Part shown: positions 1,973 to 54,183 of the stretch, piece by piece
Position numbering within the stretch: the stretch's first letter is position 1
Layout of the letters: each line of letters opens with the position of its first letter
Assembly (NCBI GenBank): GCA_005792635.1
Contig: SXRF01000068.1
Span: 180 to 64,179 of the forward strand
Length of the DNA stretch: 64,000 nucleotides
Reading direction: 5' to 3'
DNA from: Rickettsiales bacterium
GTDB taxonomy: Bacteria; Pseudomonadota; Alphaproteobacteria; Rickettsiales; SXRF01
Position numbers and translations under genes: made by a program
The notes under the pieces: generated by a model
The model's database searches: none
The model's input: the letters and a program-made list of their open reading frames with translations, nothing else
Told to the model about the DNA's origin: nothing

Positions 1973-2800
1973 ATGGCTCTCAAAAGTTTCAAACCTACAA
2001 CCCCAGCGCAACGCCAGCTAGTTTTGGTTGATCGTAGCGAGCTTTACAAAGGTAAGCCAGTTAAAAAGCTTACTGAAGGCAAAAGCAAATCTGGTGGACG
2101 CAATAACTATGGTCGCCTTACAGCATTCCGCGTGGGTGGTGGTCATAAGCAGTCTTATCGTATCATTGATTTCAAACGCCGTAAGTTTGATGTTGCGGCT
2201 ACTGTTGAACGCTTGGAGTATGATCCAAACCGCACTTCGTTTATCGCTCTTATTAAATATAGCGATGGCGAGCAGGCTTATATCATTGCGCCGCAACGCT
2301 TGGCAGTTGGCGACACGGTTATATCTTCTGAAAAAGCAGATATTAAACCGGGTAACACCATGCCGCTTAAAAATATTCCAGTGGGAACAATTGTTCACAA
2401 TGTGGAGCTAAAAGAAGGTAAGGGCGGTCAGCTTGCTCGCGCTGCTGGGGCTTATGTTCAGTTGGTTGGTAAAGATGGTGGTTACGCACAAGTAAAACTT
2501 CGTTCTGGCGAATTACGCCTTATCCGTTCAGATTGTCTGGCTACCATTGGTGCGGTTTCCAATCCGGACCATCAGAATGCAACCATTGGTAAAGCTGGTC
2601 GCAGCCGTTGGCTTGGTGTTCGCCCATCAGTTCGCGGTGTGGCGATGAACCCAGTTGACCATCCACATGGTGGTGGTGGAGGGCGCACTTCTGGTGGTCG
2701 TCATCCTGTAACACCTTGGGGTAAAGGCACAAAAGGTACAAAAACTCGTTCGAAGAAGAAGGTTAACAAGCTTATTCTTCGTAGCAGACATCAGAAATAG
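1973..2800 (+). CDS. rplB: 50S ribosomal protein L2
   Basis: 275-aa ORF with the GGGHKQSYR and [17 protein letters not shown] motifs. Confidence 0.97.
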
Positions 2801-2945
2801 TGCTAGTGGCTAGTGATTAGTGGCTAGTGATTAGTTGGGTAAAACTTTAAATTATAAGGAGGAGTGGAAAAACGGTTTGGTGAATTTGCTGGTGGTGATG
2901 AATGTTTCTTCACTGACCACTGACCACTGACCACTGACCACTAAA
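2801..2945. repeat. Heptad-periodic inverted-repeat element in the rplB-rpsS spacer
   Basis: The left arm at 2803-2837 reads CTAGTGG CTAGTGA TTAGTGG CTAGTGA TTAGTTG. The right arm at 2911-2945 reads CACTGAC x4 then CACTAAA. The arms are partly complementary through an AGTG/CACT core, and the element begins directly at the rplB stop. Confidence 0.85.
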
Positions 2946-4748: not shown

Positions 4749-5006
4749 ATGAAAACTTCTGAATTACGCACAAAATCTGCGGAAGAGTTAAACTCTATCA
4801 TATTGGAATCAAAGAAGGAACAGTTCAATCTGCGTATGCAGACGGCAACTGGCTCTTTGGAAAATAAGCAAGGTTTTAGGGAGGCTCGCCGCACTATCGC
4901 TCGTGCAAAAACCCTCTTGAACGAAGAAAAGAATGGTGCTAATAATGCCGCCCCTAAAAAGGCAGTAGCGAAAAAAACGAAGCCAAAGAAAACGGAGAAG
5001 GAATAA
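4749..5006 (+). CDS. rpmC: 50S ribosomal protein L29 with Lys/Ala-rich C-terminal tail
   Basis: 85-aa ORF. The uL29 core (ELRTKSAEELN...FNLRMQ) is followed by NNAAPKKAVAKKTKPKKTEKE. Confidence 0.92.
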   Translation: MKTSELRTKSAEELNSIILESKKEQFNLRMQTATGSLENKQGFREARRTIARAKTLLNEEKNGANNAAPKKAVAKKTKPKKTEKE

Positions 5007-5009
5007 GCC

Positions 5010-5243
5010 ATGCCAAGGCGCGTACTACAAGGAACAGTCGTTAGCGACGCAAACGAAAAAACCGTAACTGTACGGGTTGATCGTAAAGTTGCGCATCCTA
5101 TTTATAAAAAAACCATTCGTCGTTCTAAAAAATATGCGGCGCATGATGAAAAAAACCAGTTTAAGGTTGGCGATAAGGTGCAAATCATTGAATCTGCTCC
5201 GATTTCCAAGACCAAGCGCTGGCAAGTTGTTTACCAAGGATAG
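5010..5243 (+). CDS. rpsQ: 30S ribosomal protein S17
   Basis: 77-aa ORF with [20 protein letters not shown]...KKYAAHDE. Confidence 0.95.
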
Positions 5244-12891: not shown

Positions 12892-13905
12892 ATGTTAGCA
12901 AAAAATTGGCAAGACTTAATTAAACCTGTAAAGCTCGATGTGTCTCAATCTAAGGGCAATCCAAACCAAGCAACGATTGTTGCTGAGCCGCTTGAGCGTG
13001 GCTTTGGGCATACTCTTGGTGTTGCTTTGCGCCGCATACTGCTTTCGTCTTTGCAGGGGGCTGCGGTGACCACTCTTAAAATTGAGGGTGTGTTGCATGA
13101 ATTCTCCTCAATCCCTGGTGTGCGTGAGGATGTGACCGATGTTATTCTGAACATCAAAGAATTGCGTATTAAGGCTGGTAGTTCAGAAAAAAAACGGGTT
13201 ACGCTTAATGCTGTTGGTCCTTGTGAAGTAAAGGCTGGTGCGATTGAGGTTTCTGGCGATGTTGAAATTATCAATAAAGAACATGTCATTTGCACTTTGG
13301 ACAAAGGTTCAAAGCTTAATATGGAAATGACTGTGGAAACTGGTAAGGGCTATGTGCGTGCTGCTCGTGCGGCTGATGCGCCTATTGGTCTTATTCCTGT
13401 TGATGCTTTGTTTAGCCCGATTGTTAAAGTTTCATACAAAGTTGAAAATGCTCGTGTTGGTCAGATAACTGACTATGACAAGCTTTCTATGACTATAGAA
13501 ACTGATGGCTCTATCACTGCGGAAGATGCGATTGCTCTTGCTGCTCGCATTTTGCAGGATCAGTTGCAATTATTTATCAATTTCGAAGAGTCTAAAGTTG
13601 AGCGCAAAGAAGATGCAAAACCAGAGCTTCCGTTTAGCCCGTATTTGCTCAAAAAGGTTTATGATTTGGATGAGCTTTCGGTTCGTGCGACAAATTGCCT
13701 GAAAAACGACAATATTATTTATGTTGGTGATTTGGTTCAGAAAACCGAAGGTGAGATGCTTAAAACCCCGAACTTTGGGCGTAAATCACTTAATGAAATC
13801 AAAGAAAAACTGGCAAAAATTGGTTTGCGCTTCGGTATGGAAATACCAAGCTGGCCACCAGAAAATATTGAAGAACTCGCTCGTAAATACGAGGATCCAT
13901 ACTAG
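12892..13905 (+). CDS. rpoA: DNA-directed RNA polymerase subunit alpha
   Basis: ATG at 12892 after GGGAGAG. Contains [23 protein letters not shown] and the C-terminal-domain sequence [20 protein letters not shown]. Confidence 0.96.
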
Positions 13906-13906
13906 G

Positions 13907-13991
13907 GAGTGGCGAGTGCTAAGTAATAAGTGGTAAGATTTTCTTACTAACTTATCACTCATCACTCACCACTTACCACTAACAACTAAGG
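13907..13991. repeat. Heptad-periodic inverted-repeat element in the rpoA-rplQ spacer
   Basis: Left arm GAGTGGC GAGTGCT AAGTAAT AAGTGGT AAG, loop ATTTTC, right arm ACTTATC ACTCATC ACTCACC ACTTACC ACTAACA ACTAAGG. It starts 1 nt after the rpoA stop, and its last unit runs into the rplQ SD AAGGAGA. Confidence 0.85.
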
Positions 13992-17634: not shown

Positions 17635-17874
17635 AAAATTTCTCCATAATTTATATTTTTGTTATCGCTCCACGCTGACATTCAACAATGGAATCATTAA
17701 CAATCTTACCACCCCCCCCCGTTAATTAAAGCTTAATAAAAATTGAATTATTGGTTAATTTTTATGTAAATTCTCAGAAACAAATAAAAATTTGCAGTTT
17801 TTGCGCTTGCTAAAGGCGTAATAAATCGTTTAACTACATCGACATACTAACCACTAACCACGAGACACCAAAAA

Positions 17875-19482: not shown

Positions 19483-19565
19483 CTGGTATTTTGGTGATGC
19501 GTACTCGGTACTCGGGAATCCTTAATTTTTACCGAGTACCAATAACCGAGTACAGAGTACCCAAA
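19483..19565. repeat. Heptad-periodic inverted-repeat element downstream of pccB
   Basis: Left arm CTGGTAT TTTGGTG ATGCGTA CTCGGTA CTCGGGA, right arm ACCGAGT ACCAATA ACCGAGT ACAGAGT. GTACTCGG and CCGAGTAC pair perfectly. The element begins 1 nt after the pccB stop. Confidence 0.85.
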
Positions 19566-22212: not shown

Positions 22213-22855
22213 TTGGCGTTATTTGAATAGGCATGATGGTCGGTTGTATGGCAACTGGCTCGGTTGGTTTGGTTTTTTCGGTAATCGCGCTCAAGCGTTG
22301 CAAATATCGCTCGGCAAGCTCAGCTGTACCGCGCTTCCTTGCGTCTTGCTCGGAAATATAGGTGGAAAAATATTGATTGCTCGGGTTGTTATAGCTGGTG
22401 ACGCTGCTGATTGCGCCGTTATCAATCAATTTTCCGTCGCTAATCCGCGTTAATTTATAGCCAGAATTTATGGTAAGGTTATAGCGCGATGCCGTTCCGT
22501 CCCGCGAAATGCCGATGCCTGTATTGGTTTGCGAGAGCGAAACTTCTAGGCGGTATAAAGGTGCAGTGGTTTTGGTGGAAGGAACGAGCAAATCCTCCAG
22601 ATTTTGTGAGAATTGGCGGGATATTCTATTTGCGGAATTATTGCTGGTGTCGGAACTGGAGGCAAGAACGCTGGTGGTTGAGCCACTGTCGCTTGCGACG
22701 ATGACTACCCCAGCCAGAACAGGAGAATTGGCAGGCAGCGCAGATTTTGTGCCATATACAGGCTGAAAGCCGCAGGAGGAAAAGCAGATTAGGAGTGTGG
22801 AGTATAGAGTGTAGAGTGTAAGAATCCTTATAGGAAAAAACGACTTTTTCCACAC
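22187..22855 (-). CDS. lptE: LPS-assembly lipoprotein LptE
   Basis: Located between leuS and holA. Lipobox ...LLICFSSC followed by GFQPVYG. The maximal ORF starts at the ATG at 22897 inside leuS. A GTG at 22855, with GGAG 6 nt upstream, gives a normal signal peptide (M)WKKSFFPIRILTLYTLYSTLLICFSSC. The start remains ambiguous. Confidence 0.75.
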   Translation of the reverse strand: MWKKSFFPIRILTLYTLYSTLLICFSSCGFQPVYGTKSALPANSPVLAGVVIVASDSGSTTSVLASSSDTSNNSANRISRQFSQNLEDLLVPSTKTTAPLYRLEVSLSQTNTGIGISRDGTASRYNLTINSGYKLTRISDGKLIDNGAISSVTSYNNPSNQYFSTYISEQDARKRGTAELAERYLQRLSAITEKTKPTEPVAIQPTIMPIQITPNENRPQIN

Positions 22856-22878
22856 TCCGCACTCCACACTCCACACTC
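22792..22878. repeat. Heptad-periodic inverted-repeat element spanning the lptE 5' end and the leuS 3' flank
   Basis: Left arm GGAGTGT GGAGTAT AGAGTGT AGAGTGT (22792-22819), an inner mini-hairpin GGAAAAA-ACGAC-TTTTTCC (22833-22851), and right arm CACACTC CGCACTC CACACTC CACACTC (22851-22878). Confidence 0.9.
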
Positions 22879-22880
22879 TT

Positions 22881-25445
22881 CTACGCAACCACGACATTCA
22901 CAATCCTATTCGCTACGACGATTATTTTTTTAATTTCTTTATCTTTTATAGACTCCGCAACATTCGGCAGGGCAAGGGCGGTTTTTTCCAAAATCGCTTT
23001 ATCTTCGTCTTTTTTTGCTTCAAACGCACCGCGCAATTTTCCATTTACTTGTACCGCGATATTCACCGAATCATCAATTAAAAACGCAGCATCGGCAATC
23101 GGAAACGGGCGGTTTGCCAGCTCGTCTTTATTACCCAGTTGCGCCCATAATTCTTCGGCGAGATGCGGCATAAACGGATTTATCAGATGAATTGCGGCAA
23201 TTATTGCCTCATTCCTTGCCGCTGAATTTTCCGCTGTAGGTTTGGTATCCTCAATTAGATTAGTCAGCTCACGAATTCGCGCAATGGCTTTGTTGAAATG
23301 GAATTTTTCCAGATCGTCAGTGACTGCGGCGATGGTTTTGTGGGTCTGGCGAATTAGGGCTTCGGGCTTTGGGCTTTGGGCTTCGGAAGAAATACTTGAA
23401 GCCTGAAGCCTAGAGCCTGAAGCCTCTTGAACTAACCGCCACAGCCGACCGATATACCGCCATGCACCTTCAATCCCTGCATCTGTCCATTCCAGATCGC
23501 GGTCGGGCGGGCTGTCGGAAAGCATGAACAACCGCGCCGCATCCACACCATAAGTCGCGATAATATGGCGCGGGTCAATGGTGTTTTTCTTGGACTTACT
23601 CATTTTCTCAATGCGCCCGACAGTAACAGGTTTGCCAGTTTTTATTTCTACAACCCCTAATCCAGAATTGCTAACCCCTATCTCATCAGGCGACAACCAT
23701 TTGCCTTCCGCGTTTTTATAGGTTTCGTGGGAAATCATCCCCTGCGTTTCAAGGCGTTTGAAGGGTTCTTGCAAATTCAGCAAGCCACATTTGGCGAGGG
23801 CGCGGGTGAAAAAGCGCGAATATAACAAATGCAAAACCGCGTGTTCAATGCCGCCGATATAGCAATCAACGCCGCCAGCCAGCCAATAGTTTAGCGCGGA
23901 TTTTTCCAGCGGGTCTGCGCTTGGCGTGGTTGCGTAACGCAAATAATACCATGACGACTCAAAAAATGTGTCAAATGTATCCGTTTCGCGGGTGGCTGGT
24001 TTTTCGCATTTCGGGCAGTTCACATGCTTCCATGTCGGATGATTGGCCAGCGGATTACCCGCTTTTTCAAAGCTCACATCTTTGGGTAACTCAACAGGAA
24101 GCTGCGCCTCTGGTACAGGCACTGCACCGCACGAAGCGCAATGGATAATCGGAATCGGGCAACCCCAGTAGCGTTGGCGCGAAATGCCCCAATCGCGCAG
24201 ACGATAATTGGTTTTGCCTGAGCCAATTCCGAGTTTTTCTAGCTCGGCGATGGCGCGTTTTTTTGCCTCGTCGACTGACAAGCCATTGAGAAAATCCGAG
24301 TTTATAAGTGCGTCATCATCGCCAACCACTTGCAAAATCGGCAGGTTATATTTAACTGCGAATTCGTGGTCGCGCTCGTCATGCGCTGGGCAACCAAAAA
24401 TCGCGCCAGTGCCATAATCCATCAACACGAAATTGGCGATATATAGTGGCACTTCGCGGTTTTCAAACGGATGTTTGATTTTTAATCCAGTATCAAACCC
24501 TTTTTTCTCGGCTTTTTCTATCGCTTCTTCGGATGTTCCAAGCTTATTACATTCAGCGATGAAAGCAGCGGCTTCTGGGTTATGTGCGGCTATATCTTTG
24601 GCAAGGGGATGACCAGTAGAAATCGCGCAGAAACTCATGCCGAAAAATGTATCAGGTCTTGTCGTATATATGTCTATGCTGCTCTCTATTACAGGCTTGT
24701 CAGGTTTGGCGCAAAGAACTTTGAGCGTGACAACAGCTCCCTGCGATTTTCCAATCCATTTTTCCTGCATTAGGCGGACTTTTTCTGGCCATTCTTTTAA
24801 GCCGTCTAGCCCTGCGAGTAAATCCTCGGCGAAATCAGAAATCCGCAAAAACCACTGCGATAATTTGCGGCGTTCCACCAGCGCACCGCTGCGCCAGCCG
24901 CGCCCGTCAATTACTTGCTCATTGGCAAGCACCGTGTTGTCCACAGGATCCCAGTTGACTTCCGCCTCTTTGCGATATGCTAAGCCATTTTCCAGAAATT
25001 TTAGGAAAAATTTTTGCTCGTGCTTGTAATAATCAGGAAGGCAAGTTGCCAGCTCACGCGACCAATCATAAGACAGTCCTATGAGTTTTAGTTGCTCGCG
25101 CATGGTTTCAATATTCGCCAGCGTCCATGTTTCTGGGTGCGAATTATTTTGAATCGCTGCGTTTTCCGCGGGCAAGCCGAACGCGTCCCAACCCATGGGG
25201 TGCAGGACATTAAACCCCTGCGCTCGCTTGCTTCGTGCCACTACATCGCCGAGCGTGTAATTTCGCACATGCCCCATGTGGATATTTCCAGACGGGTAGG
25301 GGAACATTTCCAGCACGAAGTATTTCGGCTTCTCGCTGTTAATGCTGGCGGCGAAGCTGTTGTTTTTTGCCCAGCGCTGTTGCCACTTGGCTTCAGTTTC
25401 GCGGAAGTTGTAGCGGGTGTTTTCTGTGGTTTTTGGTTCGGTCAT
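22881..25445 (-). CDS. leuS: Leucine--tRNA ligase
   Basis: 854-aa ORF with the HMGH motif (PYPSGNIHMGHVRNY), KMSKS and the CP1 editing domain. Confidence 0.97.
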   Translation of the reverse strand: MTEPKTTENTRYNFRETEAKWQQRWAKNNSFAASINSEKPKYFVLEMFPYPSGNIHMGHVRNYTLGDVVARSKRAQGFNVLHPMGWDAFGLPAENAAIQNNSHPETWTLANIETMREQLKLIGLSYDWSRELATCLPDYYKHEQKFFLKFLENGLAYRKEAEVNWDPVDNTVLANEQVIDGRGWRSGALVERRKLSQWFLRISDFAEDLLAGLDGLKEWPEKVRLMQEKWIGKSQGAVVTLKVLCAKPDKPVIESSIDIYTTRPDTFFGMSFCAISTGHPLAKDIAAHNPEAAAFIAECNKLGTSEEAIEKAEKKGFDTGLKIKHPFENREVPLYIANFVLMDYGTGAIFGCPAHDERDHEFAVKYNLPILQVVGDDDALINSDFLNGLSVDEAKKRAIAELEKLGIGSGKTNYRLRDWGISRQRYWGCPIPIIHCASCGAVPVPEAQLPVELPKDVSFEKAGNPLANHPTWKHVNCPKCEKPATRETDTFDTFFESSWYYLRYATTPSADPLEKSALNYWLAGGVDCYIGGIEHAVLHLLYSRFFTRALAKCGLLNLQEPFKRLETQGMISHETYKNAEGKWLSPDEIGVSNSGLGVVEIKTGKPVTVGRIEKMSKSKKNTIDPRHIIATYGVDAARLFMLSDSPPDRDLEWTDAGIEGAWRYIGRLWRLVQEASGSRLQASSISSEAQSPKPEALIRQTHKTIAAVTDDLEKFHFNKAIARIRELTNLIEDTKPTAENSAARNEAIIAAIHLINPFMPHLAEELWAQLGNKDELANRPFPIADAAFLIDDSVNIAVQVNGKLRGAFEAKKDEDKAILEKTALALPNVAESIKDKEIKKIIVVANRIVNVVVA
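23358..23425. repeat. Heptad-periodic inverted repeat inside the leuS coding sequence
   Basis: GGGCTTC GGGCTTT GGGCTTT GGGCTTC, loop, GAAGCCT GAAGCCT AGAGCCT GAAGCCT. On the minus strand it is translated as ...EASGSRLQASSISSEAQSPKPEA.... Confidence 0.9.
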
Positions 25446-25454
25446 AGCGTTGTT

Positions 25455-25520
25455 GTGTCGGTGTCGGTGCTAGTGTAGGTAAGTAAATACTACCGACACC
25501 GATCACCGACACTGACACTA
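25455..25520. repeat. Short-period (6-7 nt) inverted-repeat element between the leuS start and the upstream lipoprotein gene stop
   Basis: Left GTGTCGGTGTCGGTGCTAGTGTAGGTAAG, right TACCGACACCGATCACCGACACTGACACTA. It ends at the stop codon of the 25518-26024 gene. Confidence 0.8.
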
Positions 25521-27462: not shown

Positions 27463-27687
27463 AATCTTATCCTTATTAAAGTTAAAAAACACTGTGACTA
27501 AAACCATTTATGCCCATATACTTTTCAAGTAGATGATTGGCACTCTAGGCTACACAAGGCGCAATCACGACGCTTTATGCTTGTACCTAGGCATGTTATT
27601 ATGCAAACAAATCGCCCTTGCAAGTCGTAATGAAAATAATTGGGGTTTGAAATGGTGTTTTCCCTTCGTCTGTGGCAATATGGCAAC

Positions 27688-27738
27688 AGACAGGGGCTGT
27701 GGGCTAGGAATTGGGGATTAGGAAAGAGGAAGTATAGT
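27688..27738. repeat. Heptad-periodic G-rich tract directly upstream of the yggS start
   Basis: GGGCTGT GGGCTAG GAATTGG GGATTAG GAAAGAG GAAGTAT. It is a single arm with no clear partner arm. Confidence 0.55.
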
Positions 27739-28416
27739 ATGTTGAATATAAAAGATAAATTGCAAAAAATTGCGGATGATATAGAAAAGGCGAGGGGGGC
27801 TTCGCCCATTGCTGCGCCAGCCGTTACTATACTTGCTGCCAGTAAATCGCAGTCCGCCCTATATATAGAAGAGGCGATTGCGGCGGGCATCACCGATTTT
27901 GGCGAAAACCGCGTGCAAGAAGCGGCGGAAAAGTGGGGGCAGGGCGGCTTGCGGGAAAAATATCCGCATATAAAACTACATCTAATAGGGGCATTGCAAA
28001 CTAATAAAGTGAAGCAGGCACTAGCACTTTTTGATGTTATTCAGAGTGTGGATAGCCCAAAGTTAGCAGAGGCTTTGAGTAAGCACTACACTTCACACTC
28101 CACACTCCGCACTCGTTCTTTCTATATCCAAATCAACACTGGCGAAGAGCCGCAGAAATCAGGGATTTTTCCCGCGCAGGCGGATGAATTCATAAAATAT
28201 TGTGTGGACGAGTTGCAATTGCCAGTTGTTGGGCTGATGTGTGTCCCGCCCGCTGATCAGCCGCCCGCGCCGCATTTTGCTTTGCTGCGTGAAATCGCCA
28301 AGCGGAATAATCTGCGCGAGCTTAGCATGGGCATGAGCGGCGATTACGAAGTGGCGGTGCGGATGGGCGCGAGCTGCGTTCGTGTTGGGACGGCGTTGTT
28401 TGGTGAGCGCGCATAG
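27739..28416 (+). CDS. yggS: PLP-homeostasis protein YggS (COG0325)
   Basis: MLNIKDKLQKIADDIEKA... LAASKSQS ... GENRVQE ... HLIGALQTNKVK ... ELSMGMSGDYEVAVRMGASCVRVGTALFG. The ORF-track start at 27640 is an upstream extension. Confidence 0.88.
   Translation: MLNIKDKLQKIADDIEKARGASPIAAPAVTILAASKSQSALYIEEAIAAGITDFGENRVQEAAEKWGQGGLREKYPHIKLHLIGALQTNKVKQALALFDVIQSVDSPKLAEALSKHYTSHSTLRTRSFYIQINTGEEPQKSGIFPAQADEFIKYCVDELQLPVVGLMCVPPADQPPAPHFALLREIAKRNNLRELSMGMSGDYEVAVRMGASCVRVGTALFGERA
28084..28114. repeat. CACACTC-type heptad array inside the yggS coding sequence
   Basis: ...CACACTC CACACTC CGCACTC, sharing the 14-nt string CACACTCCGCACTC with 22851-22864. It is translated as KHYTSHSTLRTR. Confidence 0.8.
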
Positions 28417-28440: not shown

Positions 28441-28533
28441 CTTGTCATACCGACGAAGGTCGGTATCCATGCCTATCGGCGTTTTATAAAGCAAGTGGCT
28501 TGGCATAGATTCCGCCCTGCGGCGGAATGACAG
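28441..28533 (-). repeat. GTCAT...ATGAC multi-hairpin element, copy 1 (reverse orientation relative to 54088-54183)
   Basis: CTTGTCAT ACCGAC-GAAG-GTCGGTAT CCATGCC ...variable... GGCATAG ATTCCGCC-CTGC-GGCGGAAT GACAG. Confidence 0.85.
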
Positions 28534-29307: not shown

Positions 29308-29382
29308 GCCGCTTTAGCTCAGGGGTAGAGCAACCGCCTTGTAAGCGGTAGGTCGTCAGTTCGAATCCGACAAGCGGCACCA
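29308..29382 (+). tRNA. tRNA-Thr (anticodon UGU)
   Basis: Hand-folded cloverleaf: acceptor GCCGCTT/AAGCGGC, D arm GCTC-AGGGGTA-GAGC, anticodon arm ACCGC-CTTGTAA-GCGGT, variable loop AGGTC, T arm GTCAG-TTCGAAT-CCGAC (one A-C mismatch), and an encoded CCA. Confidence 0.9.
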
Positions 29383-29542
29383 TTCTCCAAACTCTCAGTA
29401 TGTTTCCACAAGGCGGTTGCTCTATATAGTTTAATCCGCTCGCATAGCTGTTTTTGGTTGTTTTTCTCGCGCATTTTTTCGCAAAATTAATAAAAAATCA
29501 ATTATTGCCATATAAACTTGATGGTTTAAGTGGGAATATTTG

Positions 29543-30123: not shown

Positions 30124-30447
30124 ATGACGGCAAATAATACGGCAAAAAACATAGCTTTGCCAGAGCTGCTGAGCAGTGATGCTTTTGAGCAATTCCACGC
30201 GCTGCTCGCTGAGGAAATTTCTTCCACTGATGATATAGAATTTGATGCTTCTGGTGTTTCGCGCCTTACCACGCCTTGCGCTCAGCTTTTGGCATCGTTC
30301 TTGCAAACAAGAAATTTGCAGGTGGGAAATTCACAGGTGGGAAATTCACAAGTTGGAAAAGCACAAAAAACAGAAATAAAAAATGCCTCTGATGCGTTTC
30401 GTTCGGCGTGGAGCGATCTTGGGCTTGGAGCGCAGTTTGCCTTATAA
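30124..30447 (+). CDS. STAS-domain protein, CheS-like (first gene of the che operon)
   Basis: 107-aa ORF containing IEFDASGVSRLTTPCAQLL. Its position upstream of cheY-cheA matches cheS of Sinorhizobium meliloti. It contains an internal QVGNS repeat. Confidence 0.6.
   Translation: MTANNTAKNIALPELLSSDAFEQFHALLAEEISSTDDIEFDASGVSRLTTPCAQLLASFLQTRNLQVGNSQVGNSQVGKAQKTEIKNASDAFRSAWSDLGLGAQFAL
30319..30363 (+). repeat. 15-bp tandem repeat x3 inside the CheS-like gene
   Basis: CAGGTGGGAAATTCA CAGGTGGGAAATTCA CAAGTTGGAAAAGCA, encoding QVGNS QVGNS QVGKA. Confidence 0.95.
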
Positions 30448-36476: not shown

Positions 36477-36592
36477 TAGTGATGTTTGAGGACTAGAGGA
36501 TTAGAGAAATAGAGAATTCAATTCTTTTGTTTTTCTAGTCCTCTAATCCTCTAGTTTTCTAGTTCTCCAATCATCTAATAATCCAATTATCC
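36474..36592. repeat. Heptad-periodic inverted-repeat element in the mcp-cheR spacer
   Basis: TAGTAGT GATGTTT GAGGACT AGAGGAT TAGAGAA ATAGAGA ... TAGTCCT CTAATCC TCTAGTT TTCTAGT. The segment 36492-36506 (ACTAGAGGATTAGAG) is perfectly complementary to 36541-36555. Confidence 0.9.
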
Positions 36593-47351: not shown

Positions 47352-49547
47352 TTACGCCATAAACTCTGGCAGCCAGCTTTCATTAGTAGCTTTTAGTTGT
47401 TCAACTGATATTTTGTCGTCGCCAATAGTCAGTTGACTGACTTGCGTTTTCCCGATTAGGTAGGCTGGCACATTTATCGCTTTTGCCGCCGCTAGAATAT
47501 CCGCGCTGTTTCTTGCAGTGATTATATAGCGAGCTTGATCTTCACCGAACCAGAACCCAGCATCACCAATCGCTGTAATATCCGCGCCAATCCCATTTCT
47601 ATAAGTCATTTCGGCGATGGCAACTAGCAGCCCACCGTCGGAAATATCATGACAAGCGGTGATTTTTCCGCCCTCAATCATTGAGCGCACAAAATCGCCA
47701 TTGGCTTTTTCCGCCTGCAAATCAACTGTTGGTGGTAAGCCTTCTTCGCGTCCCAAAATCTCGCGCAGATATAACGAAGCTCCCAGATGTTCTTTGGTTT
47801 CACCAATCAGGATAATATCCTCACCAGCCGCCAGAAAACTATTACCCACGCGCTTGTTCACATCGCGCAAAATGCCAACACCGCCGATGGCTGGGGTGGG
47901 TTGAATGGCTGTGCCGCTGGTTTCGTTATATAGCGACACATTGCCCGAAATAATCGGGTAATTGAGTGCGCGGCAAGCCTCGCCCATACCCTGCAATGCG
48001 CCAACGATTTGCCCCATTATTTCGGGTTTTTCTGGGTTGCCGAAATTCAGGCAGTTGGTGATGGCAAGCGGCGTTGCGCCCACGGCGGTTAAATTCCGCC
48101 AAGTTTCGGCAACTGCTTGCTTTCCGCCCTCCACAGGGTCGGCGTAGCAATAGCGCGGTGTGCAGTCGGTGGTTATTGCCAATGCCTTATTCGTGCCATG
48201 CACGCGCACCACCGCAGCATCCCCACCACTTCGTGCCACAGTGTCATTGCCAACTTGGCTGTCATATTGTTCGTATATCCAGCGTTTGGAGCTTAAATCT
48301 GGAGACTTGAGCAGAGTGTGGAGTGTAGAGTGTAGAGTGTGGTGAGCAGGTAATTCAACACTCGTAACGAAGCACTCTACACTCCTCTTAATTTCATACG
48401 GTCGGTCGTAAATCGGAGCATCCGTTGAAACTGGCGCGATTGGCATATCAGCGACTACTTCGCCGTGCATTTTCAGCACGATATGCCCAGTATCGGTGAT
48501 TTTACCGATGGTGGCGAATGACAACTCCCATTTCTCAAACACAGCGCGGGCGATATGTTCTTTTTCTGGCTTAATCACCATCAGCATGCGCTCCTGCGAT
48601 TCTGAAAGCATGATTTCGTAAGGTGTCATGCCCACTTCGCGCATCGGCACTTTGTCCAAATCCATCTCAATTCCCGTGCCGCCTTTACCCGCCATTTCAA
48701 GGGATGAGGAGGTTAAGCCCGCCGCGCCCATGTCCTGAATGGCAAGGATGGTGTCAGTTTGCATGAGTTCAAGGCAAGCTTCAATGAGTAATTTTTCCGT
48801 AAAAGGATCTCCAACCTGCACAGTCGGGCGTTTTTCTTCGGAGTTTTCGCCGAATTCCGCTGAAGCCATCGTCGCGCCGTGGATGCCGTCGCGCCCTGTT
48901 TTGCTGCCGACATACACCACGCTGTTGCCAACGCCCGCCGCCGCCGAATAGAAGATTTTGTCTTGGTCAGCGATGCCAACGGTCATAGCATTGACGAGGA
49001 TATTGCCGTTATATGACGAGTGAAAATTGCACTCGCCGCCAACAGTGGGAACACCAACGCAGTTGCCATAGCCGCCGATGCCCGCCACCACGCCAGAAAG
49101 CAAATGTTTGGTTTTGGGGTGCGAAGGGTCGCCAAAGCGCAGCGCGTTCATATTCGCAATCGGACGCGCGCCCATGGTGAACACATCGTGCAGAATTCCG
49201 CCAACACCTGTGGCAGCACCCTGATATGGCTCAATGTAAGATGGGTGGTTGTGCGATTCCATTTTGAAAATCGCCGCTTGCCCGTCGCCAATGTCTATCA
49301 CGCCCGCGTTTTCCCCCGGCCCGCAGATGACCCAAGGTGCGCTGGTTGGCAAGTCGCGTAAGTGTTTGCGCGTGGTTTTATAAGAGCAATGCTCGCTCCA
49401 CATAACCGAGAAAATCCCCAGCTCCACCATGTTCGGCTCACGCCCCATGATTTTCAGCACGCGGGCATATTCATCAGGCGATAAGCCATGTTCAGCCACG
49501 ATTTGCGGGGTTATTTTTGATTCTATTCTTTGTGCAGCTTGGTTCAT
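47352..49547 (-). CDS. purL: Phosphoribosylformylglycinamidine synthase subunit PurL
   Basis: [21 protein letters not shown] and DCLNFGNPE-like motifs. The ATG at 49547 ([22 protein letters not shown]) is preferred over the TTG at 49598 used by the ORF track. Confidence 0.95.
48314..48386. repeat. GAGTGT-type heptad inverted repeat inside the purL coding sequence
   Basis: GAGTGTG GAGTGTA GAGTGTA GAGTGTG (48314-48341), a loop, then CACTCTA CACTCCT (48373-48386). On the minus strand it is translated as ...[17 protein letters not shown].... Confidence 0.88.
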
Positions 49548-52172: not shown

Positions 52173-52974
52173 CCGCTGTAATTCTTTCCAACGCTTTGTA
52201 ATCTGTCATGTCCATATTAATTGGAGTAACAGTGATATAACCATTTTCTAGAAAATCTATATCCACGCCTGTTTTTTCTGGTGTATTGTCGCGGTCACCC
52301 CCCAGCCAGAAATACGGCCTGCCCTTTGGGTCGGCGCGTTCACTAAGCTTTACCGTCATCATCCGCTTTCCCTGCGAGCAAACTTTTACGCCGCGCACCT
52401 TGCTTGCCGCGCAATTCGGAAAATTCAGATTTATTAGCGTATTTTCCGCCCAACCAACCGCTATTAGCTTTTTAATAATCTCTGGCGCAAATTTTTCCGC
52501 TGTTTCCCAGTGCGCTTTTTCAGAATCCTCCGTTAGCAAGCTAAGCGCAATGCTCGGAATATTGAGGACTGTTCCCTCCATCGCCGCCGCCACTGTCCCC
52601 GAATAAGTCACATCATCACCAACATTTGAGCCGCGATTAACACCTGAAAGCAACAGCGTTGGTTTTTGTTTGGCGGGAATAATCTGCTTGAGCGCGAGCA
52701 GAACGCAGTCAGTCGGTGTGCCGCTAACGGCAAATCGCCGCGCCTCAATTTTTCGCACCCGCACAGGCAGGTGCAAAGTCAGCGAATGCCCAGCTCCGCT
52801 TTGCTCAGTTTCGGGTGCAACCACCCAAATATCATCAGAAATCGCCTGTGCGATGCGCTCTAAAGCCCGCAAGCCATCGGCATTGATGCCATCGTCGTTG
52901 GAAAGTAAAATTTTAGGAGGTATGGTTTGTGGCTTATGGCTTGAGGAAGAAGCGGACGAGGAAGAAATAGACAT
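52153..52974 (-). CDS. surE: 5'/3'-nucleotidase SurE with Ser-rich N-terminal extension
   Basis: ILLSNDDGINADGLRAL and GSNVGDDVTYSGTVAAAMEG. These are preceded by MSISSSSASSSSHKPQTIPPK. Confidence 0.9.
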   Translation of the reverse strand: MSISSSSASSSSHKPQTIPPKILLSNDDGINADGLRALERIAQAISDDIWVVAPETEQSGAGHSLTLHLPVRVRKIEARRFAVSGTPTDCVLLALKQIIPAKQKPTLLLSGVNRGSNVGDDVTYSGTVAAAMEGTVLNIPSIALSLLTEDSEKAHWETAEKFAPEIIKKLIAVGWAENTLINLNFPNCAASKVRGVKVCSQGKRMMTVKLSERADPKGRPYFWLGGDRDNTPEKTGVDIDFLENGYITVTPINMDMTDYKALERITAAIDSAQ

Positions 52975-54087: not shown

Positions 54088-54183
54088 CTGTCGTCATTCC
54101 GCCGAAGGGCGGAATCCATGCCTAACCGCAAGTGTATCGCTAGTTGTTTGGCATGGATACCAGCCTTCGCTGGTATGACAAGG
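54088..54183 (+). repeat. GTCAT...ATGAC multi-hairpin element, copy 2
   Basis: CTGTCGTCAT TCCGCC-GAAG-GGCGGAAT CCATGCC ...variable... GGCATGG ATACCAGC-CTTC-GCTGGTAT GACAAG. It matches the reverse complement of 28441-28533, with compensatory stem changes. Confidence 0.85.

What the first reader, a model, noticed from the sequence alone, without database searches (positions are those of the whole stretch)
28043..28114. CACACTC heptad array embedded in yggS, and a G-rich heptad tract at its 5' end
Within yggS, the segment CACTACACTTCACACTCCACACTCCGCACTC (28084-28114) encodes KHYTSHSTLRTR and shares CACACTCCGCACTC exactly with the lptE/leuS element. It is in the stop-free orientation. From memory, it replaces a variable linker before the conserved IQINTG strand with no obvious length gain. 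A short complementary AGAGTGTGG lies at 28043-28051, but that codes for the conserved IQSVD motif and may be fortuitous. Upstream, 27688-27738 is a heptad-periodic tract (GGGCTGT GGGCTAG GAATTGG GGATTAG GAAAGAG GAAGTAT) ending at the start codon.
Basis: partly seen in the sequence, partly recalled or inferred. Interest (0 to 1): 0.6.

Follow-up and report, generated by a model that had tools for sequence, protein, structure and literature searches.

The report
Heptad-repeat remnant inside the yggS gene
The CACACTC tract in yggS is real: it is one surviving arm of a 7-base repeat hairpin, a kind of element that in this group of uncultured alphaproteobacteria sits between genes and, in frame, inside tolerant loops of essential proteins. 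The yggS loop is a hot spot for these elements across the whole group.

Summary
Positions 28084-28114 (core 28088-28114) carry about four CACACTC-type heptads in frame in yggS. The tract shares CACACTCCGCACTC exactly with a hairpin at 22793-22878.

It belongs to a family. The window has period-7 arrays at about ten loci and none at other periods from 4 to 12. Close relatives have the same excess; 488 kb of other alphaproteobacteria have none. Most arrays form pairs: a G-rich arm, a short loop, then a C-rich arm. Four or five of these loci lie inside coding sequences (lptE, leuS, purL, yggS and probably surE).

In YggS relatives of 60-70% identity, the same loop before FYIQ(V/I)NTG carries full heptad or octad hairpins or single four-heptad arrays, with different units in different lineages. 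About half of the 119 closest homologues are lengthened there. The window's array lies in register with the 3' arm of one such family (20/33 nt). It has no partner arm (fold z = -0.9) and adds only 0-2 residues.

The complementary 9-mer at 28043-28051 is ancestral IQSVD coding sequence and is fortuitous. The upstream G-rich tract is only weakly periodic.

Best reading: translated passenger DNA, a decayed arm of a heptad palindrome. This is a new variant of known heptamer repeats and of Rickettsia-style in-gene palindromes.

The parts
28084..28114 (+). The CACACTC-type heptad array in yggS (clean core 28088-28114: ACACTTC ACACTCC ACACTCC GCACTC). It is the C-rich 3' arm without a partner. It is translated as HYTSHSTLRT(R), residues 116-126.
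   Evidence: periodicity and family match; in register with the L085 arm; structure context.
27739..28416 (+). The yggS coding sequence (225 aa, PLP homeostasis protein family) that hosts the array.
   Evidence: The start at ATG 27739 agrees with all relatives.
28044..28052 (+). GAGTGTGGA, complementary to 28099-28107. These are ancestral codons of the conserved IQSVD motif and are not part of the element.
   Evidence: The identical codons occur in L172, which has a different array. The fold is not significant, z = -0.94.
27694..27735 (+). G-rich, weakly heptad-periodic tract in the yggS leader, ending 3 nt before the start codon and containing the Shine-Dalgarno-like GAGGAAG. It may be a degenerate G-type array.
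   Evidence: lag-7 P = 0.005; 0.04 for any lag. The homologous leader of L172 has GTGGCTG heptads. Other relatives have an unrelated T/A-rich leader.
22793..22878 (-). Full heptad palindrome of the same unit family: (GAGTGTR)x4, a 28-nt loop, then (YRCACTC)x4. It lies inside the 5' end of the lptE reading frame and adds about 30 aa between the start codon and the lipobox.
   Evidence: Fold -48.7 kcal/mol, z = -7.8. LptE alignment and the conserved 17-nt leuS/lptE overlap.
48313..48395 (-). Palindrome of the same unit family inside purL, between the two AIRS/AIRS_C halves. The stop-free arm is intact and the GAGTGTA-type arm is decayed.
   Evidence: Fold z = -3.7.
23357..23425 (-). Heptad palindrome of another unit family, (GGGCTTY)x4, a 10-nt loop, then (TGAAGCC)x4, inside leuS in the linker before the anticodon-binding domain.
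   Evidence: Fold z = -6.5. The same LeuS site carries other palindromes in relatives.
2798..2942 (+). Intergenic heptad palindrome between rplB and rpsS: TAGTGRY arm, then CACTGAC x4.6, ending 8 nt before the rpsS start.
   Evidence: Fold z = -3.5.
13905..13990 (+). Intergenic heptad palindrome between rpoA and rplQ: GAGTGSY/AAGTRRT arm, then CACTYAC arm, ending at the rplQ ribosome-binding site.
   Evidence: Fold z = -6.0.
19498..19563 (+). Intergenic GTACTCG palindrome.
   Evidence: Fold z = -4.2.
17846..17861 (+). Short single array, ACTAACC x2.3, 14 nt upstream of a carboxyltransferase gene.
52921..52942 (-). Short array (AGCCATA AGCCACA AACCATA on the coding strand) in the 20-aa N-terminal extension of the surE reading frame.
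36488..36579 (+). Related period-8 palindrome, (GAGGATTA/GAGAAATA), then (TCTAATCC)x5.8, intergenic between an MCP gene and cheR.
25455..25518 (+). Related period-6 palindrome, (GTGTCG)x2.5 then CACCGACACTGACAC, intergenic upstream of leuS.

Best explanation
The yggS tract is the C-rich 3' arm of a 'heptad palindrome'. This is a class of short arrays of about four 7-nt units. In this alphaproteobacterial clade the arrays normally come as a G-rich arm, a short loop and a complementary C-rich arm. They lie between genes and, in frame, in permissive loops of housekeeping proteins.

The loop of YggS between helix 107-119 and strand 127-132 lies at the N-terminal end of a barrel strand. In TIM-barrel enzymes that is the face away from the active site (general knowledge of the fold, not measured on the model). 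This loop is a clade-wide hot spot for such elements.

In this genome the G-rich arm is gone and only about 27 nt of the C-arm remain. The tract cannot form a significant hairpin. It is simply translated as HYTSHSTLRT(R) with a net length change of 0-2 residues, and most likely behaves as neutral passenger sequence.

Shown here: the array, the family, its restriction to the clade, the hot spot, the shared register with the arm in L085, the absence of a hairpin, and the loop position.

Inferred: arrays grow and shrink by replication slippage of 7-nt units; inside genes only stop-free, frame-preserving states survive; the partner arm was lost by deletion; and the units were homogenised toward this genome's CACACTCC family by ectopic conversion with the lptE and purL copies, as the shared CG variant suggests.
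For: Family and specificity. My scan finds 6 strong period-7 arrays in the window and none at periods 4-6 or 8-12. Close relatives have 14 in 103 kb. Other alphaproteobacteria have 0 in 488 kb. Three loci share the CACACTC unit, against 0.25 expected.

Palindromes are real elsewhere, with fold z-scores from -3.5 to -7.8.

Hot spot. DNA of the same YggS loop holds full hairpins in L083, L087, L088 and L090 (heptads) and L089 (octads). It holds single four-heptad arrays in L085, L172, L174 and L091. The L083 and L090 hairpins fold with z = -5.4 and -6.4. Among the 119 closest YggS proteins the segment length is modal at 49, which is the window's length, but about half are 50-76.

Register. The window array matches the L085/L083/L087/L088 3' arm at 16-20 of 33 nt in the same codon phase, against 7-11 of 33 for the other unit families.

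No hairpin in the window: z = -0.94.

Position. The AlphaFold model has mean pLDDT 93.5, with helix 107-119 and strand 127-132. The length gain against PDB 3r79 is only 2 residues.

Other in-gene copies are in lptE (+30 aa), leuS and purL.

Literature. Heptanucleotide repeats are the commonest long simple sequence repeats in bacteria and are attributed to polymerase slippage (Mrazek 2007, as summarised in PMC4679880). In Xanthomonas, GGGAATC arrays prefer four units and form 70-75 convergent pairs per genome (PMC4692102).
Against: No relative closer than 70% identity was found, so the order of events (hairpin first, then loss of an arm) is not polarised. The array could equally be a single arm that never had a partner.

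The 20/33 in-register match rests largely on the shared ACTC core.

Only 64 kb of this genome was available, so family size and unit preferences are samples.

Slippage, template switching and ectopic conversion are inferred, not observed. No copy-number polymorphism was seen: the three assemblies are identical.

Unit variants in the two arms of full palindromes are not mirror images. The strict G-arm-then-C-arm polarity is unexplained by simple slippage.
Confidence: 0.8

Rival explanations
1. Recent, independent insertion of a mobile element. In this view a MITE- or RPE-like heptad element, or half of one, copied from the lptE/purL family, transposed into the yggS loop. The different units seen at this site in other lineages are then separate insertions into a preferred target.
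For: The same unit, including the rare CG variant, is at three loci within 64 kb. Completely different elements occupy the same site in L087 and L089, whose yggS is otherwise about 97% identical 3' of the loop. Several hairpin loops share GAAGAAA..ATACT.
Against: The elements have no conserved termini or core and no target-site duplication. Arm length and unit vary from copy to copy. The window array adds no length and lies in register with the array of a 70%-identical relative. No transposase, reverse transcriptase or RAYT was found among 37 window ORFs scanned, although such a gene could lie elsewhere in the genome. The L087/L089 mosaic can also be explained by homologous recombination of alleles.
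Confidence: 0.15
2. A functional element. In this view the heptads or hairpins are selected, for example as RNA or DNA structures or protein-binding sites that tune transcription, mRNA stability or translation, or as a useful peptide. The yggS tract would then be a working part of that system.
For: Hairpin potential is kept while the unit sequence changes between lineages. Several arrays end right at start codons or ribosome-binding sites: rpsS, rplQ, the carboxyltransferase gene and the yggS leader. This resembles the TAACTGA repeats proposed as post-transcriptional regulator sites (PMC4679880). The strict arm polarity is specific to the clade.
Against: The window's yggS copy has no hairpin, and other clade members have no array or an unrelated one at this site, so any function is dispensable here. 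The peptide is not conserved. Complementarity can arise from copying between arms without selection. No known RNA family matches.
Confidence: 0.1
3. Chance, or codon usage of a T/S/H/L-rich peptide.
For: The array is short, at 27-31 nt, and the loop is variable, so any sequence could drift there.
Against: The lag-7 periodicity is reached by 0 of 20,000 shuffles. The exact 14-mer shared with another array has an expectation of 0.25 even allowing 2 mismatches. The excess is restricted to period 7 and to this clade. The peptide is not conserved in orthologues.
Confidence: 0.02

Closest known systems
Heptameric simple sequence repeats of Xanthomonas (GGGAATC) and Nostoc (GGGGA(T/C)T), Rehm et al. 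2015, PMC4692102; more generally the heptanucleotide 'long simple sequence repeats' of Mrazek et al. 2007
   Same: Both are dispersed tandem 7-nt units with a preference for about four units. Many occur as two convergent arrays, G-rich on each strand pointing inward, able to form stem-loops. That is the same geometry and polarity as here.
   Different: [quoted passage not shown] Here many unit families coexist, most cannot form G4 (CACACTC has no G or C runs), four or five of about ten heptad loci in the window are inside genes, and the host is an uncultured alphaproteobacterial clade.
STRR (short tandemly repeated repetitive) heptanucleotides of heterocystous cyanobacteria (Mazel et al. 1990; own knowledge, also cited in PMC4692102)
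   Same: Both are tandem heptanucleotide arrays scattered through the genome, with several unit families per genome.
   Different: STRR arrays are described mainly in non-coding DNA of cyanobacteria. Residence in frame in conserved housekeeping genes and site-level hot spots are not part of that description, as far as I could check.
Rickettsia palindromic elements (RPE), Ogata et al. 2000 (own knowledge; mentioned in PMC1779305 and PMC1166351, listed)
   Same: Both are palindromic repeats found in frame inside essential protein genes, at sites that tolerate extra residues, as well as between genes. Both are translated as part of the protein.
   Different: RPEs are 100-150-bp elements with a conserved consensus per family and are not built from tandem short units. 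The elements here have no conserved core, are 60-150 nt long, and vary in unit sequence. The window's yggS copy adds almost no length.
TAACTGA direct repeats of marine Beggiatoaceae, cyanobacteria and Bacteroidetes (MacGregor 2015, PMC4679880)
   Same: Both are heptamer direct repeats of 2-6 copies, often a few nucleotides upstream of start codons, including in ribosomal protein operons. In reading frames they occur only in the stop-free orientation. Relatives here even carry ACTGAYA-type units.
   Different: The Beggiatoaceae repeats are a single unit sequence, almost always direct (only one indirect repeat reported), and mostly intergenic.
REP/REPIN elements mobilised by RAYT transposases (PMC3116915, listed; otherwise own knowledge)
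   Same: Both are short dispersed palindromes that can form hairpins and are often paired.
   Different: REPs have a conserved sequence per family, are extragenic, and co-occur with a RAYT gene. None of these features was found here.

Membership tests
Heptanucleotide simple sequence repeat family (STRR / LSSR type) | Head-to-tail copies of a 7-nt unit, three or more copies. | tested here: met
   TRF reports period 7, 3.9 copies and 90% matches at 28088-28114. Lag-7 matches are 19/24, reached by 0 of 20,000 shuffles.
Heptanucleotide simple sequence repeat family (STRR / LSSR type) | Genome-wide over-representation of period 7 relative to other periods, at many dispersed loci. | tested here: met
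   Window: 6 arrays at period 7 and 0 at periods 4-6 and 8-12. Relatives: 14 at period 7 and 2 at period 8. Other alphaproteobacteria: 0 in 488 kb. Only 64 kb of this genome was available.
Convergent heptamer pairs (Xanthomonas GGGAATC type) | Two arrays of complementary units close together, with the G-rich strands converging. | tested here: not met
   This is met for the family: 21 of 21 scored pairs have the G-rich arm 5', and the control in other alphaproteobacteria is 32 vs 30. The yggS array itself has no partner arm; the only complement is a fortuitous 9-mer and the fold z is -0.94.
Convergent heptamer pairs (Xanthomonas GGGAATC type) | G-tracts able to form a G-quadruplex; four units preferred. 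| tested here: not met
   The array has about four units, but CACACTC/GAGTGTG has no run of three G or C. Some relatives' arrays (GGGATTC in L172) would qualify.
Rickettsia palindromic elements (RPE) | In-frame residence in protein-coding genes at tolerant sites. | tested here: met
   The yggS, lptE, leuS and purL reading frames all run through their arrays. The yggS array maps to a helix end and an alpha-to-beta loop in the model.
Rickettsia palindromic elements (RPE) | A conserved consensus sequence of 100-150 bp shared by all copies of a family. | tested here: not met
   Copies share only the heptad unit. Loops and arm lengths differ, and the units differ between loci and between lineages.
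REP/REPIN-RAYT | A conserved 20-40-nt imperfect palindrome, extragenic, with a RAYT (IS200/IS605-like) gene in the genome. | tested here: inconclusive
   The sequence is not conserved and four or five loci are intragenic, so those features are not met. No Y1 transposase was found among 37 window ORFs, but the rest of the genome was not available.
YggS / PLP homeostasis protein (the host gene) | The Ala_racemase_N-type TIM barrel fold with the conserved motifs. | tested here: met
   Pfam PF01168, E = 1e-16 over residues 9-224. PDB 3r79 matches at E = 2e-62 and E. coli YggS 1w8g at E = 6e-25. K36, N57, the SMGMS motif and other positions are invariant in the alignments. The model has pLDDT 93.5.

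The most novel reading that the evidence does not exclude
The clade may possess a specific repeat-writing process rather than ordinary slippage. One candidate is break repair or snap-back synthesis that adds about four G-rich 7-nt units in the 5'-to-3' direction on both sides of a lesion. This would explain three things: the invariant polarity of G-arm, loop, C-arm; the roughly 28-nt arms; and the arms being made of the same units without being mirror copies. Such a process would keep rewriting permissive sites, including loops of essential proteins, giving site-level hot spots with turnover between genomes that are about 97% identical in the flanks. The yggS tract would be one scar of this process.
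Probability: 0.15. Interest if true: 0.85.

Novelty: new variant of a known kind. Interest (0 to 1): 0.6.

Why it matters
Palindromic repeats inside essential genes are best known from Rickettsia. Heptamer arrays are best known from non-coding DNA of cyanobacteria and Xanthomonas. Here the two phenomena meet in a group of uncultured alphaproteobacteria.

Short heptad palindromes with many different units occupy the same tolerant loops of YggS, LeuS and LptE in different lineages. They turn over quickly and obey a strict arm polarity that ordinary inverted repeats in other alphaproteobacteria do not show.

This gives a natural experiment on three questions: which protein sites tolerate arbitrary low-complexity inserts, how tandem repeats and hairpins are generated, and whether the widespread bacterial preference for 7-nt units has a specific enzymatic cause.

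For annotation, it explains lineage-specific low-complexity inserts in otherwise conserved proteins of these metagenome-assembled genomes.

Tried and rejected
(1) Codon usage or a conserved peptide as the cause. Rejected: the loop peptide differs in every relative.

(2) A hairpin between 28044-28052 and the array. Rejected: z = -0.94, and the 9-mer is identical in L172, which has a different array.

(3) The metagenome-contig scan with the YggS alignment returned only distant homologues (63% identity or less), because the patterns chosen were too general. It gave nothing for the hot-spot question, although those loci served as extra negative controls.

(4) The genome-contig scan found no relative above 58% identity, so the window's own species and the close clade are not among those representatives. 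Closer relatives had to be fetched one at a time by exact protein look-up.

(5) Rfam gave no family for any array or for the yggS leader.

(6) G-quadruplex reading (Xanthomonas model). Rejected for the CACACTC family, which has no G or C runs.

(7) A conserved loop motif as the sign of a mobile core. GAAGAAA..ATACT recurs, but only in about two independent sites, and in sense orientation it could reflect selection for E/K-rich surface loops. It is kept as a lead only.

(8) A search for a transposase, reverse transcriptase or RAYT in the window found none among 37 ORFs.

(9) Literature searches found no description of heptad palindromes inside housekeeping genes of alphaproteobacteria. The library is incomplete, so this is not proof of novelty.

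Full report
**1. The observation**

The 31-nt string is at 28084-28114 on the + strand. It lies in frame in a 225-aa gene, 27739-28416. This gene is a YggS-type PLP homeostasis protein: Pfam Ala_racemase_N across residues 9-224, PDB 3r79 at E = 2e-62 and E. coli YggS at E = 6e-25.

Tandem Repeats Finder gives period 7, 3.9 copies and 90% matches for 28088-28114. The lag-7 self-match (19/24) is never reached in 20,000 shuffles.

CACACTCCGCACTC recurs exactly at 22851-22864. With up to two mismatches it hits three loci seven times, against 0.25 expected. The sense orientation has no stop codon in any frame, while the reverse has stops in two frames. Two other assemblies of the same organism (GCA_005779685.1 and a Logan assembly of SRR8894382) have the identical gene.

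**2. It is one member of a family**

The window has period-7 arrays at about ten loci. A uniform scan finds six strong arrays at period 7 and none at periods 4-6 or 8-12.

Most are inverted pairs that fold far better than shuffled controls (all):

| Locus | Fold z-score |
|---|---|
| 22793-22878 | -7.8 |
| 23357-23425 | -6.5 |
| 13905-13990 | -6.0 |
| 19498-19563 | -4.2 |
| 48313-48395 | -3.7 |
| 2798-2942 | -3.5 |

Related period-8 (36488-36579) and period-6 (25455-25518) pairs also exist.

Four pairs are intergenic: rplB-rpsS, rpoA-rplQ, 19498-19563 and the period-8 pair between an MCP gene and cheR. The period-6 pair is also intergenic. The others are inside genes.
- The GGGCTTY/GAAGCCY pair lies in leuS, before the anticodon-binding domain.
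- A GAGTGTR/YACACTC pair lies in purL.
The lptE start codon overlaps leuS by 17 nt, here and in four relatives, and the window's LptE is about 30 aa longer exactly where the palindrome lies.
- A short array also sits in the N-terminal extension of surE.

**3. The family is clade-specific**

The same scan gives 14 period-7 and 2 period-8 arrays in 103 kb from seven close relatives. It gives none in 488 kb around yggS of 78 other alphaproteobacteria. The two best hits of the species-representative collection (58% and 53% identical) also lack them.

**4. The yggS loop is a hot spot**

The 119 closest YggS proteins (55-70% identity) align cleanly except in the loop before FYIQ(V/I)NTG. The segment from QTNK to NTG is modal at 49 residues, which is the window's length. 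About half of the proteins have 50-76 residues there.

I fetched DNA for ten relatives (sequences):

| Locus | Element in the loop |
|---|---|
| L083, L087, L088 | Full heptad hairpins: GCTGAGT/TTAGAGT arm, A-rich loop, ACTCAGC/ACTCAAA arm |
| L090 | GACAGTG ... GTCCACC heptad hairpin |
| L089 | Octad hairpin ending in (AATTCCTC)x4.5 |
| L085 | Only the ACTCAAA/ACTCAGC arm |
| L172, L174, L091 | Single four-heptad arrays of GGGATTC, GGATTCA and GGCTTAG |
| L173 | Degenerate heptads (CGGAAAA CGAACGG CGGAGGG CGAACAA) |

The hairpins in L083 and L090 fold with z = -5.4 and -6.4.

LeuS shows the same behaviour at the site after WRLVQ. The window has GGCTTCA/GAAGCCC, L089 and L174 have GTSGTCA/GACAACT, and L085 has a single C-arm. 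The 5' end of lptE also carries different elements in different relatives.

L087 and L089 are about 97% identical 3' of the yggS loop, yet they carry unrelated elements in it. Turnover, or allele exchange, is therefore fast.

**5. What the window's copy is**

Anchored on the FY codons, the window array matches the 3' arm of L085 at 20 of 33 nt in the same codon phase, and those of L083, L087 and L088 at 16-18. The other unit families match at only 7-11, which is chance level.

K-H/K-Y-T before the array is shared with L085. KHY or RHY is also seen in array-free relatives, so the leading CACTAC is probably ancestral and the true array starts near 28088.

There is no G-rich partner arm. The only complement is the 9-mer in the IQSVD codons. 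The nearest relative, L172, has the identical CAGAGTGTGGAT although its array is GGGATTC, and the predicted stem is not better than shuffles (z = -0.94).

An AlphaFold model (mean pLDDT 93.5) puts residues 116-126 at the end of helix 107-119 and in the loop before strand 127-132. In a TIM barrel this alpha-to-beta loop is on the face opposite the catalytic C-terminal strand ends; this follows from established knowledge of the fold. The length gain is 2 residues against PDB 3r79 and most alphaproteobacteria, and 0 against the clade's mode.

**6. The upstream tract**

The quoted heptads are at 27694-27735. Lag-7 matches are 22/44, with P = 0.005 for lag 7 alone and about 0.04 allowing any lag. 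TRF does not call the tract.

The tract lies between a motif conserved in all relatives (TGTGGCAATATRGCAACA) and the start codon, and it includes the likely ribosome-binding site. L172 has GTGGCTG-type heptads at the same place (P = 0.002). Most relatives instead have a T/A-rich leader. I rate it a plausible degenerate array, not a demonstrated one.

**7. Mechanism**

*Shown:* the arrays are real, specific to the clade, tolerated in frame, concentrated at permissive sites, and change quickly.

*Constraint seen directly:* three copies of a heptad expose all three frames, so units with TAG, TGA or TAA cannot persist on the sense strand. Accordingly, the stop-free C-type arm is intact in purL and yggS. 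G-type arms in genes are decayed (purL), or built from two copies each of two different units (L083: TTAGAGT x2 plus GCTGAGT x2).

*Inferred:* growth and shrinkage occur by slippage of 7-nt units, as proposed for bacterial heptanucleotide repeats (Mrazek 2007, summarised in PMC4679880, and in PMC4692102). The G-arm was lost by deletion. The units were homogenised toward this genome's CACACTCC family by ectopic conversion; the rare CG variant shared with the lptE copy points that way.

I found no sign of a transposase among 37 ORFs of the window, no conserved element core and no known RNA family.

**8. An unexplained regularity**

In 21 of 21 scored pairs (about 17 independent loci) the 5' arm is the G-rich one. 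This does not depend on the strand read, because the reverse complement of such a palindrome has the same arm order.

Perfect inverted repeats in general show 26:3 in the clade but 32:30 in other alphaproteobacteria. The same 'convergent' arrangement, and a preference for four units, is reported for GGGAATC arrays of Xanthomonas (PMC4692102).

The unit variants of the two arms are not mirror images, so one arm is not simply an inverted copy of the other. This leaves room for a dedicated repeat-making process. I give that reading a low probability, but it is the most novel one the evidence does not exclude.

**9. Comparison and verdict**

The tract works like a decayed, translated passenger repeat. 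The family combines features of heptanucleotide repeats (STRR of cyanobacteria, GGGAATC of Xanthomonas, TAACTGA of Beggiatoaceae) with the in-gene lifestyle of Rickettsia palindromic elements.
- It is a member of the first kind by structure.
- It is not an RPE or a REP, because there is no conserved consensus.
- The yggS copy itself fails the 'paired' criterion.

I found no description of such elements inside housekeeping genes of alphaproteobacteria in the searchable literature. I rate it a new variant of a known kind, with interest 0.6.

Noticed in passing
window 28441-28531 and 54093-54179; also L083 2915-2990 and L090 about 4975-5060: A second, unrelated repeat family. It is a nested palindrome of about 95 nt: GTCATnCCnnCGAARGnnGGnATCCATGCC ... 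GGCATGGATnCCnnCYTTCGnnGGnATGAC. One copy lies just 3' of yggS. In relative L090 a copy is translated inside the 5' end of lptE.
   Followed up: partly
window about 27607-27690 (upstream of yggS): A sequence block conserved in all close relatives: CTTGCAAGYCGTAA, then GGTGTTTTC-N8-10-TGTGGCAATATRGCAACA. It may be a promoter plus an operator or leader. It has no Rfam match.
   Followed up: no
all scored inverted pairs in the window and in L083-L091, L172-L174: Strict arm polarity. The 5' arm is G-rich in 21 of 21 array-based pairs, and in 26 against 3 perfect inverted repeats. Other alphaproteobacteria show 32 against 30.
   Followed up: partly
L087 1427-2158 versus L089 10001-10744: These two yggS alleles are about 97% identical 3' of the loop, yet one carries a heptad hairpin and the other an unrelated octad hairpin. 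Their first 100 nt are also divergent, giving a mosaic pattern.
   Followed up: partly
window 23387-23396 versus L089 and L174 at the same LeuS site: The loop motif GAAGAAA..ATACT recurs in several in-gene hairpins. In the window's leuS element it is on the antisense strand (GGAAGAAATACT), as if the loop had been flipped between the inverted arms.
   Followed up: partly
L083 3194-3219; window 27934-27950: A second array site in YggS, after EKW. L083 has (GGCTTGG)x3.7 coding LGAWGLGL. The window and L172 have 3 extra residues there (GQG and GIG) without clear periodicity.
   Followed up: no
window 30311-30366: A 15-nt tandem repeat of about 3 copies, coding QVGNS repeats, in a small ORF (30124-30447) upstream of a chemotaxis operon.
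   Followed up: no
window 29308-29382 and 29408-29424: tRNA-Thr(TGT). A perfect 17-nt inverted copy of its positions 29326-29342 lies 25 nt downstream.
   Followed up: no
L085, L089 and L090 leuS (alignment): Other lineage-specific inserts occur in LeuS of relatives. L090 carries AQDPAQSL(C/R)ASQDD at two separate sites. L085 has SPYRGEAGRGASTIVEQDSPHPSPPPTGEG. L089 has a GGCTTAT-type palindrome in the catalytic domain.
   Followed up: no
window as a whole: Gene content is a ribosomal protein cluster, a che operon with MCPs, mreB, and purine and folate genes. No mobile-element genes were found among the ORFs scanned. This looks like a free-living motile alphaproteobacterium, although NCBI labels relatives 'Rickettsiales bacterium'.
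   Followed up: partly
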